DNA from: a virus
Length of the DNA: 64,000 nucleotides
Strand: one strand, 5' to 3'
Virus record (IMG/VR): IMGVR_UViG_3300034170_000023
Location: 19,208 to 83,207 of that record
Part shown: one piece after another, positions 4,021-63,372 of the stretch
How positions within the stretch are numbered: position 1 is the first letter of the stretch
How the letters are laid out: each line of letters starts with the position of its first letter
The notes under the pieces: generated by a model
Databases searched by the model: none
Told to the model about the DNA's origin: nothing
The model's input: the letters and a program-made list of their open reading frames with translations, nothing else
Position numbers and translations under genes: made by a program

Positions 4021-4359
4021 ATGATTTGGTTAGCGATTGAAAGGGCTATACATCTAACCACTCTAGTATTATTGATAATCATGATCTCTATCATTTTCTC
4101 TAATAACAAAAGTACACAAGAAGTAGGCAACTTTAGCATTAAGCTTGATTCTGTCAAACAAGATATCTATAAAGTGATGAGTAATAATGTTGATTATCAA
4201 GACTCAAGGATTAATAAACTAGCTGAGAATCAAGACTCATATCAAGTGGGTACTGACCAGAGAGTTTACTTGCTAGAACAACAGATAAAGTTAGTGCAAG
4301 CAACCAATAAGAATAATAATCGTATTGTGAACACTAACATTAATACTGTGAATAATTAA
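4021..4359 (+). CDS. Single-TM coiled-coil membrane protein, lysis region
   Basis: N-terminal TM, coiled coil, AAGGGG RBS. Confidence 0.5.
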   Translation: MIWLAIERAIHLTTLVLLIIMISIIFSNNKSTQEVGNFSIKLDSVKQDIYKVMSNNVDYQDSRINKLAENQDSYQVGTDQRVYLLEQQIKLVQATNKNNNRIVNTNINTVNN

Positions 4360-54017: not shown

Positions 54018-54749
54018 TTGATTATTGAAGATGGTGAACGGACTTTCTGGGTAGATACTGATACTGGAGAGATTGAGGCTGAGCAAGTAAACTTTGTAAC
54101 CACTAATAAAAAGAGAAAGAAAGAAGATAAATACTATTCTGATTCCCTACTCAGCACTACAACAGCCCGTAGTAAAGATGATATTGAGGCTTTCATTAAG
54201 GCAACTATAGACAAGCGTAAACTAATCACACTAAACAATGCACGTCTGTACCATGATGTAAACTGTGGTGAAGTGATGAGGAACGGAACAAAGAATAACT
54301 TTACAGTGCCAGCATACAATATAATGGAAAAGCTAATTAATGCCTTAACACTAAACAACTGTATTATTTGTACACCAGAAGATTTAGGTGTAATCTTGGA
54401 TTGTGATCCAAAGCATAATAAACGTACATTAGAATCTTGTAAGTCTTTGGTTAGGTATCAAGGTACTAGAGACATGCAACGTGGTTTTGTTAAGTTGTTT
54501 ATCAACCCTGCATTCGGTTGGAAGGGTGATTGTTCTATAGCTTACCGAAATCAACAGCGTGCAACAGGTGATTGGTATAGTGGTTTGAATACAGATTTAA
54601 AAGAGTTTGATGTAGGTGCATCTGGAGATATGAAGTTCAGCCCGACATTAGATAAATGGTTACTTGAATTGACAAGCAGAGCTAAACCCTTCAGCGAAGA
54701 TGCAGACTTATTTCGTGCATCATTTTTTAGTATTAAAGGTATGATTTAA
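54018..54749 (+). CDS. Putative RepL-like / winged-helix replication or DNA-binding protein
   Basis: VD.DTGEI start, HTH-like segment, LFINPAFGWKG; own sigma70 promoter at 53962. Confidence 0.4.
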   Translation: MIIEDGERTFWVDTDTGEIEAEQVNFVTTNKKRKKEDKYYSDSLLSTTTARSKDDIEAFIKATIDKRKLITLNNARLYHDVNCGEVMRNGTKNNFTVPAYNIMEKLINALTLNNCIICTPEDLGVILDCDPKHNKRTLESCKSLVRYQGTRDMQRGFVKLFINPAFGWKGDCSIAYRNQQRATGDWYSGLNTDLKEFDVGASGDMKFSPTLDKWLLELTSRAKPFSEDADLFRASFFSIKGMI

Positions 54750-55732
54750 TGAAGTATGAGGGATCTATCACAGAGTTAAGACATGATAATGAGCTATCAG
54801 ATAAAGGTCAGTATAAATATGTTGGGAGTTTCCAAGAGAAAGGCGTAGTTAGGATATTCATCTTTCTTTGTACTGTTTGCGAGAAAGATAAAGAGTTGTT
54901 TGGAGATGGCCTATTCTGGACAAGAAAGCAAGACTTTAAGAATAATCAACTCTTTTGTGGTTGTGCTAAAAAGGTGACTTGGACACTAGAGCAGTCAGAA
55001 ACTAAGTCAATAAGGGCCGCGTCAGAAGCTGGTAATACATTTGAAGGTATAATAGAGCCATATATTGGTGGCTCAAGTAGGTGTAACCTCTCTTGTGCTG
55101 TATGTAACCATAAATGGACATCTAAGCTATCTAACTTATGGGCCCTTAAGAGGGGTTGTCCAAGTTGTAGGACTATAAAATTTTTAACTGCTGCTAAATT
55201 TGCAAATTTAAAACCGGATTCAATTATCACTAAGTCTTTTATGGAAACAGGAGCCTACCACCCACACACCATATTTACAAAGATTGACAGGAAGGCTAAA
55301 AATTCTAAAACTAATTATTGGAGTGTGTATTGTCCAATATGTGAAGAGACGTCTGAGTGTCAGCAAGGTCACTTACTAAAAGGCAGCATTTCGTGTGGGT
55401 GCTCTATGCACAACCAAATGGAGTCTTATATTAATCTAGTGAAAGATGGAGATGAAGTCGTAGCTATAAAATTTGGCATATCAAAAGATTCCCATAAGAG
55501 ACTAGTATCTCACAACTATAATACAACGTATAATGTTGAAATGCTGAGTATTTTTAAATATGATAAAAGCATAGATTGTAAAGCAGCAGAGCGGGAGTGT
55601 CTAGATACACTAGCGTGCGGTATAATTGAAAAAGAAATGTTTCATGGCGGCTGGACCGAAACAACATACCCATACAATATAGATGTTGTGTCACGTATAT
55701 TTAAGAAGTTTGGAGGTGTGCGTATATTTTAG
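54749..55732 (+). mobile_element. Homing endonuclease: Zn-ribbon repeats plus C-terminal GIY-YIG/T5orf172-like domain
   Basis: Multiple CxxC; SYI...IKFGIS....R...E...GWTET. Confidence 0.7.
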
Positions 55733-56068
55733 ATATTTATTTTACACTATGCTTGACATTCACACAGTAAGTTTGATAGAGTCCTCCTATTGAAACCAAC
55801 TAAGGAGTCCACAATAATGGGCGAAGTAAACTTTTGTTCAGAATGTGGACGAATTAACAACTACTGTGTATGTCATATTGAAGTAGAATACTTAGAAGAA
55901 AGCACTGAAGTATTCCGTGGAGAATATGCTTTTGAGGGCCTAACAGACCCAGATACAAGTATGTTTAAAACTATTTTACCTAAATATGAATAAATAGTTG
56001 ACAAATTAATATAAGTATGCCAGTATTAGGTATATCTAGTTGAAAGGCTGGATATACCTAATCAATCG

Positions 56069-56400
56069 AAGTACACATGTACCCCGGCAGATAGTGTATG
56101 GCTTCATTGCACGTAGGGTGAGACGTTGGTTACTGGCAATTGAATGCTTTACAGGTCACTTATTAATAAATTAAAACTCACTCTGGTTAATCTTAAGTGA
56201 GTTAATGTTTATTGTAGTGAGTTTTAAAGTGACACGGATACTACGTTCATACGCGGCGTAGTACGTTGACAAGTAGGCTCAGTCAATTCAACTTGGATGC
56301 TAGATTAACAAGGGTGGACTACGAGAGCCATACAAATCTAGTAGCGTCTACGAAAAGACAGGGTGTAAAATAGAAGTGTACCTTGGGCTAAATGCTCAGC
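56069..56400 (+). ncRNA. Large multibranch structured RNA (unassigned)
   Basis: No ORF of 60 aa or more; nested long-range helices with G-U pairs; TTGACA promoter at 55998. Confidence 0.6.
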
Positions 56401-56690
56401 ACTCCTAACAACAAAGCTCCTATAAACTCCCTCTCCTTATAAAGCTTTGTTCTCCTCGCAGGCTTATGACAACTGCTGCTTTCCTCCTTCTCAGTAGTTG
56501 TCTCCTTAAATAGTCCTGCATTAAAGACCCTTTATTTCCTCTCCTTAGTAGAGTGGTCTTTGGCATCTTATACGTGTTTACTCTCCTATCACGTATAAGA
56601 TGTATTTCTTAAGAATCTTCCTTCTGTTGAATATTGTACGGAATTTGGTATTTAGCCAATATAGTCCTACGAGGATTCTTAAGAAATGCA
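56401..56690 (+). ncRNA. Hairpin array displaying anti-Shine-Dalgarno CUCCU motifs
   Basis: 8 CTCCT copies in about 190 nt; four hairpins with C/U-rich loops; terminal 20-bp stem. Confidence 0.65.
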
Positions 56691-56722
56691 TTTAATTTAA
56701 AATAACAATGTTTGAGGTAATT

Positions 56723-57055
56723 ATGTCACTAATTATGAAGCGTGGTGATAGCGTAAATTACCTCGCAGTTATTCCAGATACATTTCCAGATGGCTACTTC
56801 ACAAATTGGTCAGTAGCAAGTCAGATCCGTACAGCTCAATATGACATCTTAGTCACTTCTCTAACGTGTACATGGGCAGACCCTCTCACTACACGTAACC
56901 TTCTAGTCACAGAGATTGTGACAACAGATTGGAAACTTGGTAAGGCTCTTATTGATATTCAATTCGTAAGAGACAGTGATGGCTTCACTCTTAGTACAAA
57001 TACTCTAGAGATTGAGATTGTACGTGACATTACACATCCAGATACAGTGGTGTAA
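56723..57055 (+). CDS. Virion structural protein (BppU-N-like Ig fold)
   Basis: KRGDS...W.VASQIR...T.DW..G...DIQF...ST..L.I...DIT pattern. Confidence 0.5.
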   Translation: MSLIMKRGDSVNYLAVIPDTFPDGYFTNWSVASQIRTAQYDILVTSLTCTWADPLTTRNLLVTEIVTTDWKLGKALIDIQFVRDSDGFTLSTNTLEIEIVRDITHPDTVV

Positions 57056-60705: not shown

Positions 60706-60797
60706 TATGTAATGAGAGCGAAAAGGCTGGCCAGCCCTGATGATTGCCGATACAATCGCCTAGCTCTCACCTAATTTATGTCTTATCGGAGATTGAA

Positions 60798-61634
60798 ATG
60801 ATTAAAAACAGTATTAAAGATTATGCTGGTCAAACCAATAAGTTCCTGACAATTATTGAACGTCATGAACCAACTGAGATGGATACAGCAGACACAGCAC
60901 TTTGGAAAGCTAAATGTATTTGTGGTGTTGAGTGTGTCATTGCTCACAAGTCCTTCCGTAAGAGAACAACTTGTGGTTGTGGCATCAGAAGTACTAAATA
61001 CCAAGCTGGAAATAAGTATGGATTACTAACTATTGTAAGCGAAGGCCCTAAAGCAGAGTATGCCAACAAGCGTCAAGTCTGGTGTAAATGTGACTGCGGG
61101 AATGAAAATCTTACGCTAGTTTCCACAAATAATTTGGTTTCTGGCAACACTTCAAGTTGTGGATGTGTTGGTGAAGAAAGTCGAAAGACTCACGGCATGT
61201 CAAACACACGAACTTACCAGATTCATGAAGGAATGATTCGTCGTTGCAAACCCCATCTAGCAGATGACTTCCCATATCACGCGGGAAAAGGAATTAAGGT
61301 TTGTGAAGAATGGGAAGTATTTGAAAAGTTCTACGAAGACATGGGCGAATGTCCTGATGGACTAAGCCTCGACCGGATTGATGTGCATGGTAACTACTGC
61401 AAAGAAAATTGCCGATGGGCAACTAATAGTGTTCAAGGCTATAACAAAGGTTTAGATCCAAATAACACTTCTGGTAAGTCTGGCGTAAGTTGGTATACAC
61501 AGAGTGAGAAATGGTCTGCTGAAATCCATGTAGAAAACAGACATATCCGATTAGGTATGTTCTCTAACTTTGATGACGCAGTTAAAGCTCGCGAAGAAGC
61601 AGAACTTAAATACTACGGATGGAATAAACAATGA
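60798..61634 (+). mobile_element. HNH-AP2 homing endonuclease with Cys-rich N-terminal repeats
   Basis: C.C.CG repeats, THGMS, F..DMG, SLDRIDV.GNY..ENCRWA, NNTSG..GV AP2 domain; stop overlaps the TerL start (ATGA). Confidence 0.88.
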
Positions 61635-63372
61635 GTAATAAAGAGAAGGAGGTCCGCATTGGGCCTTCGTCCACTTTCCAAGCAAAATACCTCAACTCAG
61701 ATGCTCAGATCATGCTGGTTGGTGGAGCGGCTTAACCTAGATCGGGTCGCTATAAACTCCTCTAATTCAGGGAACGCTAAGGGAGAAATCCTATGCCAAT
61801 CCTGAGCGAAGCCCTTAAAAGGGAACGTGCAGAGACTAGTCGAAAGACGTAGGATGCAAGCGCATTCGAAACGGGGGGCAACTTTGTAAGTTGAAGATAT
61901 AGTCCAGTTACACTAGAAATAGTGGAAAAGAAGTAGCGTTCTTATAATTATCGGGATCATCAAAAAGTTACGTCGGGTTGATGAGGCATCTACGCTTCGT
62001 CCACGACAGCAACTATAAAGCATACTGCATTCGTAAAAACTCCAGTGCCATTATGGCTTCTGGTGGTTTGTTCTGGGAAGCTGTGAAGTTATACACACAG
62101 TTTGAACCGAACATTAAAGTTAAACTTAAAGATCAAAAGATTGTTTTTCCTTCTGGCGCTGAAATTAGCTTCTCTCACTATGAGAATGACACAGCAGCTA
62201 AGAAGTATCAGGGTATTCAAATCTCAAATATTTTTTATGATGAGGTTACGCACGCCGATAACGAAGAACAACTATGGTGGTTATGGTCACGTCTTCGTTC
62301 TGATGCAGAAAACGTACACTCAATGTGGTGGTCATGTAACCCAGATAATGCTAGTTGGGTTCTTAAGTATGCAATGTGGTGGTTGTTCCCAGAAGGTCAC
62401 GAATTAGCTGGTCGTCCAGATCCAGAAAAGAATGGCAAGATTCGGTATCTTCTTCGGATTGCTGGTGAGCTGGTTTGGGGCGATACAAGAGAAGAATTGA
62501 TTGAGAAGTATGGTAATCATAAACTCTCTGTTGAACATGAAGACCAAGTAAAACCAATTAGTTTTCAAGGGTTATTTGGCACCATTGATGACAATCCCGA
62601 TTTGCGGCGATCTAACCCACTCTACAAATCAAATCTTCAGGCGCTCCCAAAACTAGACCGAGAAAGATTACTTTTTGGGAACTGGTTTGCAAGGCCAGAT
62701 GGCAGTTCGTATTACGATAGAACAAGTTGTAAAGAACTTACTAGCATTCCAAGTGAAAGAGATTTCACAAAGATAGTTAGGGTTTTCGACGTAGCGGGCA
62801 CAATTCCACATGACGGTAACAGATCGCCAGATTACTTTGCAAGCGTCAAGATGGGCAAGTTAGTATCTGGAAATTATGTCATCCTAGATATAGTCCGTAC
62901 ACGGATTACCTTTGGTAGTTGGTTGGAACATATCTTAGGTCTTGCAAGAGAAGATGGCCCTAATGTGGATATCGTTCTTGGTGAAGATCCTAACCCAGCA
63001 GCCAAGGCAGCGATCAACTTGCTTGCAAGAGAGATTATTGAAGCGGGCTTTGTTTGTAAAACCAAACGTGCATCTGCTGGTAAACTTGATTCTTTCAGAC
63101 CCTTCGCAGCAGCAGCAGAATTAGGTGCTGTAGATATTGTTAAGAACTGTGGGAATGACTTATGGAATAAGATTGTTAGTAATAATGACTTCTTCTATAA
63201 AGAGTTGGAAAACTTTGATGGTACTCGAAAGGGTGGCGAACTAGGCCATGATGATATGGTCGACTGTTGTTCTCTAGCATTTATGTACCTAGCCCAGAAA
63301 GTTCACATCGGAAACTTCCTCCCCGGCATCCAATCAATTGACCTCTCACAAAAGAACGCATTCAAATTCTAA
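61631..63372 (+). CDS. terL: Terminase large subunit, spliced: join(61631..61732,61954..63372)
   Basis: Splicing restores Walker A GGAA|GSSKS; Walker B FYDE, CNP, RLL.GNW, nuclease FDVA, HDDMVD. Confidence 0.92.
61733..61953 (+). mobile_element. ORF-less group I intron (IA2-like), 221 nt
   Basis: P1 AGCGGCU/GGUCGCU with U-G at the 5' splice site; R GCAGAGACUA (61829); S AAGAUAUAGUCC (61894-905); P7.1, P7.2, P8, P9; terminal G. Confidence 0.93.

What the first reader, a model, noticed from the sequence alone, without database searches (positions are those of the whole stretch)
56069..56400. Unassigned ~320-nt multibranch RNA upstream of the virion/packaging genes
Seen (+ strand pairings): GUACAC 56071/56376; UGUACCC 56078/GGGUGUA 56361; UGUAUGGCUU 56095/GAGCCAUACA 56325; AUUGC/GCAAU arm; UGAAU/AUUCA; GUCACUU 56155/AAGUGAC 56227 enclosing a 12-bp stem; UACUACGU/GCGUAGUA; UUGAC/GUCAA; and a possible pseudoknot GCUAGAUU 56299/AAUCUAGU 56335. 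It follows a TTGACA promoter (55998) and a 13-bp hairpin (56027-60). It lacks hallmarks of tRNA, tmRNA, RNase P or group I/II introns. It lies upstream of terminase and just after a homing endonuclease, where related phages often keep tRNAs. Inference: a new large phage ncRNA (ribozyme, scaffold or decoy).
Basis: partly seen in the sequence, partly recalled or inferred. Interest (0 to 1): 0.8.

Follow-up and report, generated by a model that had tools for sequence, protein, structure and literature searches.

The report
Two new modular phage noncoding RNAs
The flagged stretch is a real, unannotated RNA gene region of an uncultured phage, but it is a string of two independently inherited, pseudoknotted RNA modules that match no described RNA family and whose job is unknown, not one 320-nt RNA.

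Summary
Partly confirmed. The region lies in a 700-nt ORF-free gap, has no tRNA/tmRNA, and matches no Rfam family even at E<10. Relatives from IMG/VR and metagenomes show that only two parts are conserved. (1) A 74-nt 5' module (56059-56132): a closing stem around an H-type pseudoknot. (2) A ~120-nt core (56234-56352): a hairpin, a loop-to-linker pseudoknot and a three-way junction with a GAGA tetraloop. Covariation for the core is strong: 99% of cells paired, 17 of 29 pairs with compensatory changes, slid controls 28-43%. For the 5' module it is moderate: 95% paired, 8 of 22. G-U pairs, promoters and terminators in relatives place the RNA on the + strand. The modules occur alone, together, or at variable spacing. 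They sit beside tRNAs or upstream of terminase genes in at least two unrelated phage groups. No bacterial genome matched the core pattern. Function is unknown. My best guess is stable, trans-acting accessory RNAs that bind a protein. This scan noted look-alike RNA islands before on other DNA (e1-6076735, e1-5851305).

The parts
55998..56026 (+). Promoter-like site: TTGACA (55998-56003), 17-nt spacer, weak -10 CAGTAT (56021-26)
   Evidence: Read from the sequence. The consensus scan did not call it because the -10 is poor. Relatives have clear sigma70-type promoters at the same place and orientation: L030 TTGACA-N16/17-TAATAAT, L034 TTGACT-N16-TATAAT, L022 TTGCAA-N17-TACAAT.
56025..56062 (+). 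17-bp hairpin with a GAAA tetraloop. Its loop and 3' arm carry the motif GAAAGGCUGGA, which in relatives lies downstream of the 5' module.
   Evidence: strand folding: -21.7 kcal/mol, z = -6.8. The same motif is seen in M1, L005, L033 and L022 at other positions.
56059..56132 (+). 5' module (74 nt). Closing stem Pa 56059-66/56125-32. H-type pseudoknot: S1 56071-76 with 56094-99; S2 56081-84 with 56116-19 and 56087-90 with 56107-10.
   Evidence: 13 homologues (A4): 94.8% of cells paired against 26-46% when slid; 8 of 22 pairs have changes on both sides. Model R2 scores 85-101 bits in 12 loci. 88% identical over 69 nt to Pseudomonas phage vB_PsaM_M1.
56146..56230 (+).
   Evidence: strand folding z = -3.7. 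Absent from all homologous loci, where the linker is 9-165 nt of unrelated sequence.
56234..56352 (+). Core module (~120 nt).
- H1 56239-45/56257-63, with the conserved 11-nt loop UUCAUACGCGG.
- Pseudoknot 56265-69 with 56288-92 (loop of H2).
- Px 56273-77 with 56347-51, closing a three-way junction.
- H2 56283-86/56293-96.
- H3 outer 56299-306/56335-42.
- H3 inner 56314-17/56328-31, capped by C-GAGA-G 56322-27.
   Evidence: 16 homologues (A2): 99.1% of cells paired against 28-43% when slid; 17 of 29 pairs have changes on both sides, including 3 of 5 pseudoknot pairs. Px occurs in five compensatory variants at one register: GUAGA/UCUAC, GUAGGC/GCCUAC, GCAGA/UCUGC, GCAAC/GUUGC, GGAGG/CCUCC. Model R1 scores 112-151 bits with one copy per locus.
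56353..56400 (+). 3' tail (AAAGACAGGGUGUAAAAUAG...).
   Evidence: Sequence comparison. No significant fold of its own (z = -0.5).

Best explanation
Shown: 56059-56352 encodes, on the + strand, two autonomous, evolutionarily conserved, pseudoknotted RNA modules. One is a 74-nt 5' module and the other a ~120-nt core. Here they are joined by a lineage-specific hairpin and preceded by a promoter-like site and a GAAA hairpin. They belong to a non-coding RNA island that in related phages also holds tRNA genes and other structured modules. The island lies just upstream of the virion/packaging genes, on the same strand.

The modules behave like separate genes. Each occurs without the other, with variable spacing and order, and in at least two unrelated phage groups. 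Close relatives differ in whether they carry them.

Inferred (about 35-40% of my belief): they are stable, trans-acting accessory RNAs, made from a strong promoter alone or as part of a polycistronic non-coding transcript that is cut up as tRNA arrays are. Their compact tertiary folds would then bind and titrate or redirect a protein, for example a host RNA-directed defence, decay or translation factor, or a phage partner. On this view they do not act by long antisense pairing, by catalysis, or in cis.
For: Reality and strand:
- Covariation in both modules.
- 53 of 464 cells are G-U wobbles, including three nearly invariant G-U pairs. These would be A-C mismatches on the other strand.
- Promoters lie upstream and U-tract terminators downstream in L033, L042, L043, L052 and L053.

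Independence of the modules:
- R2 but not R1 hits in M1, L003, L016, L052, L054 and L055.
- R1 but not R2 hits in L026, L031, L035, L038, L043, L044, L046 and L047.
- Both hit in the window, L005, L015, L033, L042 and L053.

Stand-alone genes: L052 is promoter + 5' module + terminator. L043 and L046 carry the core between terminators.

Accessory and horizontally spread:
- The core is 66-75% identical between the window's Felix-O1-like lineage and the L033/L043 types.
- The window's TerL is ~50% identical to Pseudomonas phages SYP, M1 and phiPMW.
- The L033 type's TerL is ~72% identical to the ~40-kb lambdoid-layout phage KLEP17-4.
- The cultured relatives SYP, phiPMW, KLEP17-4, Lbo-JY16 and PB15 lack both modules, and M1 lacks the core.
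- The one match to the core pattern in 185,579 prokaryote species genomes is a chance hit in a coding region.
- A homing-endonuclease ORF sits inside the H1 loop in L032, and an endonuclease gene lies next to the RNA here.

A fold built for specific recognition: invariant unpaired nucleotides (the H1 loop, ACUAC-GAGA-G, AAGGG, ACGGAU), a GNRA tetraloop and pseudoknots. No long complementary targets for the conserved loops occur in the phage.

Weak hint of expression: contigs from RNA libraries of three studies (peat, soil, permafrost) hold the core or the adjacent hairpin array of close relatives.
Against: - No experiment bears on function, and no partner protein is identified.
- No conserved neighbouring protein is shared by the different phage groups.
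- The phage has no Ro60/TROVE or RtcB gene.
- In the window no terminator separates the RNA from the virion genes, so a cis role as leader is possible here.
- RNA-library contigs do not prove transcription, strand or ends.
- Much of the 5'-module covariation rests on one split between two clades.
Confidence: 0.45

Rival explanations
1. Cis-acting leader of the late (virion/packaging) operon. The modules would sit between a strong promoter and the late genes and control readthrough, in one of three ways: put-like RNA-mediated antitermination, a binding site for an antiterminator, or a 5' stabiliser. This would be like the pR'-tR' leader of lambdoid phages.
For: - Constant position just upstream of, and co-oriented with, holin-like/TerS/TerL genes in the L033 type, and with virion genes in the window.
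- In L052 and L053 the 5' module starts at the predicted 5' end of the transcript, and the RNA ends in an intrinsic terminator directly before the late genes.
- KLEP17-4, the closest cultured relative of that type, has NinB/NinG genes followed by a ~660-nt non-coding gap up to the end of the record, with TerS/TerL at the start of the record.
- No terminator lies between the RNA and the virion genes in the window.
Against: - The core also occurs after the TerS-like gene (L035, L015, L026, L038, L047).
- It also lies between terminators in arrays of small RNA genes (L043, L046), and before tRNAs (L034, L005). It therefore has no constant downstream gene.
- Module order and number vary.
- Close relatives manage late transcription without the modules.
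Confidence: 0.2
2. The core (or the 5' module) is a new small ribozyme, for example a self-cleaving or processing RNA that cuts the non-coding array into units.
For: - Size, pseudoknots, a three-way junction and many invariant unpaired nucleotides are typical of small ribozymes.
- It lives in polycistronic RNA arrays that need processing.
- In the L033-type RNAs the 5'-terminal motif AAUACGGAU recurs downstream of the core: longest common substring 7-9 nt, p<=0.03 in 3 loci.
Against: - No match to any self-cleaving family in Rfam, even at E<10.
- No conserved candidate cleavage site.
- The repeated-end motif is missing in most homologues, including the window.
- tRNA arrays are normally processed by host RNase P/E (established knowledge).
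Confidence: 0.1
3. One reading: one ~320-nt multibranch RNA closed by the long-range helices 56071/56376, 56078/56361 and 56095/56325.
For: The complementary segments exist, and the MFE fold of 56060-56400 uses them.
Against: - z = -1.5 only.
- The 5' strands of these helices are committed to covarying local pairs, and GAGCCAUAC to H3 inner.
- The homologous 3' tail is present in L031, which has no 5' module.
- The modules occur separately.
Confidence: 0.05
4. Not an RNA gene: a short protein-coding ORF (frame YGYYVHTRRSTLTS...DYESGTS) or a DNA-level site (pac/cos, or an endonuclease target).
For: One frame is free of stops over the core in 11 of 16 homologues, and three of the four variable H1-loop positions are synonymous in it. 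Position next to the terminase genes.
Against: - 5 of 16 homologues have in-frame stops.
- Indels that are not multiples of three put the 3' half in three different registers: ADYESGTS, GRLRELYKSS or GPTTRVVQ.
- Substitutions in the stems are radical at the amino-acid level but compensatory as RNA pairs.
- There is no conserved start codon or ribosome-binding site.
- Conserved G-U pairs argue for selection on a single-stranded RNA of the + strand.
Confidence: 0.03

Closest known systems
PAK_P3 sRNA1 and sRNA2 (Pseudomonas phage PAK_P3; Chevallereau et al. 2016, PMC4933390)
   Same: Small (~83 and ~134 nt) non-coding RNAs of a virulent Pseudomonas myophage. They are encoded beside or between phage tRNA genes, at the end of the record whose first gene is the large terminase. 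They are among the most abundant late transcripts and their function is unknown.
   Different: Not homologous: models R1 and R2 find nothing in the whole PAK_P3 genome. sRNA2 contains a tRNA-like T-arm, and our modules do not. Expression is shown by RNA-seq for PAK_P3 but not for ours.
Phage T4 small stable RNAs (band C/D, species 1 and 2; rnaC, rnaD)
   Same: Stable non-tRNA RNAs encoded in the tRNA region of a virulent phage, with function unknown since the 1970s (as stated in PMC4933390). A homing endonuclease (SegB) lives in that tRNA region (PMC2330249 abstract).
   Different: No sequence match: blastn of the window region against 50,697 phage records hit only M1. Structure was not compared here, because I did not fetch the T4 sequences.
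GOLLD and ROOL large ornate RNAs (Rfam RF01998, RF03087)
   Same: Structured RNAs of unknown function that are often phage- or prophage-borne and lie next to tRNA genes (own knowledge; bioRxiv 10.1101/2024.12.08.627333, listed).
   Different: Those are single RNAs of ~580-800 nt. Ours are separable modules of 74 and ~120 nt. No Rfam hit at gathering score or at E<10.
Leader RNAs of lambdoid late operons (the pR'-tR' '6S' transcript; StxS sRNA) and HK022 put RNA
   Same: In the L033-type phages the RNA sits between a promoter and an intrinsic terminator directly upstream of holin-like/terminase genes. The put RNAs are ~70-nt structured elements near the 5' end of transcripts (own knowledge).
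   Different: No sequence or family relationship was tested or known. Our core also occurs away from that position, and no antiterminator dependence is shown.
phi29 prohead (packaging) RNA, pRNA (Rfam RF00044)
   Same: A phage RNA of ~120-170 nt with a three-way junction and loop-mediated pairing (own knowledge). Ours lies near packaging genes.
   Different: No Rfam match. The core is absent from close relatives that package DNA normally: M1, SYP, phiPMW. Its pseudoknot partner is a linker, not a second loop.

Membership tests
tRNA / tmRNA | Cloverleaf with anticodon arm, or tRNA-like domain plus tag reading frame | tested here: not met
   ARAGORN finds no gene in the window or in the rest of the genome. 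The Rfam tRNA and tmRNA models do not hit.
RNase P RNA (bacterial A/B, archaeal) | A P4 helix formed by conserved regions CR-I (GGAAAGUCC) and CR-V, and a match to the Rfam models | tested here: not met
   No RNase P hit at E<10 in the window region or in the L033 homologue. The GAAAGGCYGG element that superficially resembles CR-I is optional, since L042 lacks it, and it changes position between phages.
Group I intron (RF00028) | P3-P9 core with a P7 G-binding site; interrupts a gene; Rfam model match | tested here: not met
   The same search finds the true group I intron at 61644-61926 (93 bits), and introns in L015, L026 and L031, but nothing on this element. There are no flanking exons.
GOLLD / ROOL / HEARO and other catalogued large or phage RNAs (Rfam 15, 4227 families) | Score at or above the family's gathering threshold | tested here: not met
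   cmscan at gathering score on the window and 9 loci, and at E<10 on 55900-56750 and on L033: only chance-level hits.
PAK_P3 sRNA1/sRNA2 | Homology of sequence and structure to the annotated sRNAs at 85348-85430 and 86344-86477 of KC862299 | tested here: not met
   R1 and R2 give no match in L056 and L057, the whole PAK_P3 genome. The position is analogous.
Conserved structured RNA (general criterion) | Compensatory base changes that maintain the helices, above alignment-shift controls | tested here: met
   Core: 99.1% paired, 17 of 29 pairs with double changes, covariation score 0.47 against 0.02-0.10 when slid. 5' module: 94.8% paired, 8 of 22, score 0.39 against 0.02-0.08.
Protein-coding gene | One reading frame kept open and conserved across homologues | tested here: not met
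   Stops in 5 of 16 homologues, and three different registers in the 3' half.
Expressed RNA | A discrete transcript with defined ends and strand | tested here: inconclusive
   Only assembled contigs from three metatranscriptome runs cover the core (56207-56384, 56234-56355) or the hairpin array (56407-56528) of close relatives. DNA carry-over, strand and ends cannot be judged.

The most novel reading that the evidence does not exclude
The ~120-nt core, and separately the 74-nt 5' module, are founding members of new classes of horizontally mobile phage RNA 'genes' with a specific biochemical activity. That activity would be either a new small ribozyme or a high-affinity decoy that disarms a host RNA-directed defence or takes over a translation or decay factor. 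Phages would then trade functional RNA modules in their tRNA/late-leader islands just as they trade anti-defence protein genes.
Probability: 0.2. Interest if true: 0.85.

Novelty: new variant of a known kind. Interest (0 to 1): 0.6.

Why it matters
Virulent phages are known to make a few abundant small RNAs beside their tRNA genes (T4 species 1 and 2, PAK_P3 sRNA1 and 2), and none has a function. Here are two such RNAs whose folds are well defined by covariation and include pseudoknots. They are shared by unrelated phages and no bacterial genome matched the core pattern. They are small enough (74 and ~120 nt) for in-line probing, pull-downs and structure determination. The 5' module is also present in a cultured phage, Pseudomonas phage vB_PsaM_M1, so experiments are possible now. 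The mix-and-match inheritance suggests that the non-coding islands of phages are exchange sites for functional RNA modules, much as accessory-gene islands are for proteins.

Tried and rejected
- Rfam at gathering score and at E<10: nothing on the element. The sub-threshold hits lie in the neighbouring hairpin array (LhrC, CcsR1) or on terminators (abiF, Trp leader).
- RNase P idea, based on motifs like GAAAGGCCGG and GUAAGGUGAGA: rejected. The first element is optional and mobile, the second pairs locally, and no model hits.
- Hammerhead idea (CUGACGAG...CGAAA): rejected. GUUGA is held in a covarying pseudoknot, and the motif is not conserved (window UUGACAA, L030, L046, L047).
- Sarcin-ricin-loop mimic (ACUACGAGAG against AGUACGAGAGGACC): rejected as a mimic. 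The 3' GA of the bulged-G motif is replaced by a covarying Watson-Crick stem; only the GAGA tetraloop is shared.
- tRNA-like reading of the 74-nt module: there is no cloverleaf, and the T-loop-like GGNUUCA is not conserved (UUGA and UAGA variants).
- Target-site duplication or mobile-element reading of the core: flanking direct repeats are significant only in the L033/L042/L053 group, L046 and marginally L047. They are absent in most homologues and in the window.
- Group I-type splicing of the core out of the L052-like RNA: the flanking repeat cannot give both a U before the 5' splice site and a terminal G.
- Antisense targets of the conserved loops in the phage genome: only self matches and one chance 10-mer.
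- Extra tertiary pairs from column correlations: swamped by phylogenetic signal.
- Ro60/Y-RNA-like system, a lead from e1-248795: no TROVE and no RtcB gene in the genome.
- Cultured carriers of the core: none. Not in M1, SYP, phiPMW, PAK_P3, KLEP17-4, Lbo-JY16 or PB15, and blastn of two variants against 50,697 phage records found none.
- Bacterial genomes: the one pattern match is a chance hit inside a dehydratase-like coding region.
- Supplementary tables of the 2023 catalogue of 10,006 viral candidate RNAs (PMC10690425) are not held, so I cannot say whether these motifs are among its unnamed candidates.
- Read laying: only short contigs were available. Parts of the stretch without cover are not evidence of anything.
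- The simple terminator scan missed the terminators of L053 that are visible by eye, because their loops are 9 nt.

Full report
**Where it is.** The window is bases 19208-83207 of an 83,207-bp IMG/VR virus record with terminal repeats. The flagged stretch lies in a 700-nt gap without credible ORFs, 55994-56707.

Upstream are an endonuclease gene (54749-55732; CapR and T5orf172 domains, phrog_681) and a ~58-aa zinc-ribbon ORF. Downstream, on the same strand, come virion-protein genes, an HNH endonuclease and a large terminase split by a group I intron at 61644-61926 (93 bits). The nearest cultured phages by TerL are Pseudomonas phages vB_PpS_SYP, vB_PsaM_M1 and phiPMW, at ~50% amino-acid identity. 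The whole genome has no tRNA gene.

**The observation.** As a single molecule, though, 56060-56400 is not more stable than shuffled sequence (z = -1.5). The opposite strand scores slightly better (z = -2.4), so thermodynamics decides nothing.

Rfam 15 has no match on the element, at gathering score or at E<10. ARAGORN finds nothing.

**Homologues.**
- blastn against 50,697 phage records found one hit: 69 nt, 88% identical, in Pseudomonas phage M1. It lies in a 426-nt intergenic region just before tRNA-Pro, tRNA-Asn and tRNA-Thr.
- Exact-pattern scans of IMG/VR and of JGI/ENA metagenomes, seeded from conserved stretches, recovered about 25 distinct loci.
- A scan of one genome from each of 185,579 prokaryote species gave a single match, which is a chance hit inside a coding region.

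**Two conserved modules, not one RNA.** The alignments showed that conservation is confined to two blocks.

*The core (window 56234-56352)* is 66-93% identical to its homologues. I derived its structure from the sequences and tested it on 16 distinct homologues:
- Hairpin H1, with an almost invariant 11-nt loop.
- A 5-bp pseudoknot between the linker GUUGA and the loop UCAAC of hairpin H2.
- A two-tier helix H3, capped by a C-GAGA-G tetraloop with a 4-nt bulge.

Of all cells, 99.1% form standard pairs, against 28-43% when the 3' partners are slid by 1-3 columns. Seventeen of 29 pairs change on both sides, including 3 of the 5 pseudoknot pairs, and no shuffle reached the observed covariation score.

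A further helix, Px (56273-77 with 56347-51), closes a three-way junction around H2 and H3. It appears at one register in five compensatory versions: GUAGA/UCUAC, GUAGGC/GCCUAC, GCAGA/UCUGC, GCAAC/GUUGC and GGAGG/CCUCC.

*The 5' module (56059-56132)* is a closing stem around an H-type pseudoknot. On 13 homologues, 94.8% of cells pair against 26-46% when slid, and 8 of 22 pairs change on both sides. Most of those changes separate just two clades, so support is moderate.

**Strand.** Fifty-three of 464 cells in the core are G-U pairs, three of them nearly invariant. On the other strand they would be A-C mismatches. Relatives have good sigma70-type promoters just upstream and U-tract terminators just downstream in this orientation. 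The window's own promoter has a perfect -35 but a weak -10, which is why the scan did not call it.

- Two of its helices are right: H1 and GCUAGAUU/AAUCUAGU. The latter is an ordinary nested helix, not a pseudoknot.
- The three long-range helices that close its 320-nt model use strands that are committed to covarying local pairs. Their 3' partner segment is conserved in L031, which has no 5' module.
- UUGAC/GUCAA is replaced by the pseudoknot and H2.
- The long AT-rich hairpin between the modules (56146-56230, z = -3.7) and the GAAA hairpin in front (56025-56062, z = -6.8) are real but lineage-specific.

**Independence of the modules.** Covariance models of each (R1, R2) were run over all loci held.
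- 5' module alone: M1, L003, L016, L052, L054, L055.
- Core alone: L026, L031, L035, L038, L043, L044, L046, L047.
- Both: the window, L005, L015, L033, L042, L053, with linkers of 9 to ~165 nt.
- L022, L030 and L034 carry the core with a divergent form of the 5' module, which scores only 15-17 bits in L022 and L034.

L052 is simply promoter, 5' module, small hairpin and terminator. Its close relative L053 has the core inserted after the 5' module. Other conserved hairpin modules appear before or after the core in different phages. The picture is beads on a string.

**Context in other phages.** In the Felix-O1-like relatives the modules lie among or before tRNA genes, next to a TerS-like gene.

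In a second, unrelated group (L033, L039, L042, L052-L055) the RNA has its own promoter and terminator directly upstream of a holin-like gene, TerS and TerL. This group's TerL is ~72% identical to the ~40-kb Pseudomonas phage KLEP17-4, which has NinB/NinG genes. The position is that of a lambdoid late-operon leader.

The cultured relatives of both groups lack the core, and all but M1 lack the 5' module. The modules are therefore accessory and move horizontally. In L032 an endonuclease ORF of the HNH/AP2 type (judged by eye, not searched) is inserted in the H1 loop of the core. That fits a very conserved DNA target in a recombination-prone island.

**Rivals.**
- *A protein-coding reading.* This deserved a look because one frame is open across the core in 11 of 16 homologues. 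It fails: five homologues have stops, indels put the 3' half in three different registers, and stem substitutions are radical for a protein but compensatory for RNA.
- *A cis leader or antitermination role.* Plausible for the 5' module and for the window, where no terminator precedes the virion genes. It does not fit the core's variable position or its occurrence between terminators.
- *A ribozyme.* Cannot be excluded. No known self-cleaving family matches, and no conserved cleavage site is evident.

**Expression.** Runs holding near-identical sequence include three metatranscriptomes from different studies. Their contigs cover the core (56207-56384 in a peat library; 56234-56355 in a soil library, flanked by L034-like sequence) or the downstream hairpin array (56407-56528 in a permafrost library, preceded by sequence that looks like a tRNA 3' end). 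No adjacent coding sequence was recovered. These are assembled contigs that may include DNA, so this is only a hint.

**Closest known.** They are ~83- and ~134-nt RNAs that are strongly expressed late. They lie beside and between the phage's tRNA genes, at the end of the record whose first gene is the large terminase, and their function is unknown (PMC4933390). They are positional analogues, but neither model matches them. The same paper names T4 band C/D RNAs as the only other small RNAs of a virulent phage.

**Verdict.** This is a real and apparently undescribed pair of phage RNA families with well-supported pseudoknotted folds. I commit, at low confidence, to stable trans-acting accessory RNAs that bind a protein. 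The same kind of island, and probably the same core family, has been flagged before in this scan on other genomes: e1-6076735 shares 7 of 28 short words and e1-5851305 shares 2 of 28.

Noticed in passing
window 56401-56690: Array of hairpins with CUCC(U)-rich loops directly after the RNA, with no terminator in between. A similar array follows the core in L030, and a permafrost metatranscriptome contig covers 56407-56528 of a close relative. Weak Rfam resemblances only: LhrC 22.8 bits, CcsR1 18.3 bits. On the opposite strand the loops would read GGA/AGGAG. This is separate finding e1-6108260.
   Followed up: partly
window 61644-61926: Bona fide group I intron (RF00028, 93 bits) between the two large-terminase ORFs (60744-61634 is an HNH endonuclease; 61978-63372 is TerL). 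Related loci L015, L026 and L031 also carry group I introns.
   Followed up: partly
L032 (reverse strand), about 60-910 of the reverse complement: An endonuclease ORF, of the HNH/AP2 type by eye, plus an extra hairpin is inserted in the H1 loop of the core RNA gene. GUUGGCGAG is duplicated, and the loop's 3' part and most of H1's 3' strand (GCGGCG) are lost. This is either a disrupted RNA gene or one that tolerates a huge loop insertion.
   Followed up: partly
L033 11843-11886 (-), L042 997-1038 (-): The terminator hairpin ending the L033-type RNA resembles the Rfam abiF RNA motif (CCAAGCCU...GCUCAAAUCGG; 28.2 bits, gathering score 37). The motif is named for the abiF abortive-infection genes. 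A phage copy could be a decoy, but the score is below threshold.
   Followed up: partly
window 56040-56056; L001 ~4065-4085; L005, L033, L022: A short motif, (U)UGAAAGGCYGGA in a hairpin, lies upstream of the 5' module in the window, downstream of it in M1, L005 and L033, and far downstream in L022. It is another mobile element of the island.
   Followed up: no
L022, L026, L038, L005, L015, L031, L035 (downstream or upstream of the core): Further conserved modules not present in the window. One is a bulged hairpin, GUGUGAUCGCUACYUAAGCAUCA, which covaries GCU/AGC with GCA/UGC. The other is a ~80-nt element, GCACCGGG...CCCGAGGAGNACACGGCUGA...GAGGGUGCCUAAC, found after the core in L022 and L026 but before it in L038. 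No Rfam hit at gathering score in L022 or L026.
   Followed up: no
L003 ~4180-4290 and L022 ~1640-1745: A conserved ~100-nt element ending in a T-arm-like GAAGGUUAGAUUCCUUC that ARAGORN does not call as a tRNA. It may be a tRNA-like RNA.
   Followed up: no
L052 against L053 (IMG/VR relatives): L053 equals L052 plus the core flanked by a 7-nt direct repeat (UGAUGUA). It also has a second 32-nt insertion that starts with the core's first 9 nt (AAUACGGAU) and ends with CGAAA, like the core's 3' end. This hints at how the modules are gained or decay.
   Followed up: partly
whole genome G000 (window plus L058): This phage has no tRNA gene at all, although its relatives (M1, phiPMW, L005, L034) keep tRNA clusters at the homologous site. 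The island here holds only non-tRNA RNAs.
   Followed up: yes
window 55817-55993: A small zinc-ribbon protein (CxxC...CxC, then F-R-x-E-Y/W-A-F-E) is encoded just upstream of the RNA island in the window, L030, L034 and L047. Zinc-ribbon ORFs without that motif hold the same place in L022 and L026. M1 has an annotated 'zinc ribbon domain protein' nearby. No Pfam or PHROG family matches.
   Followed up: no
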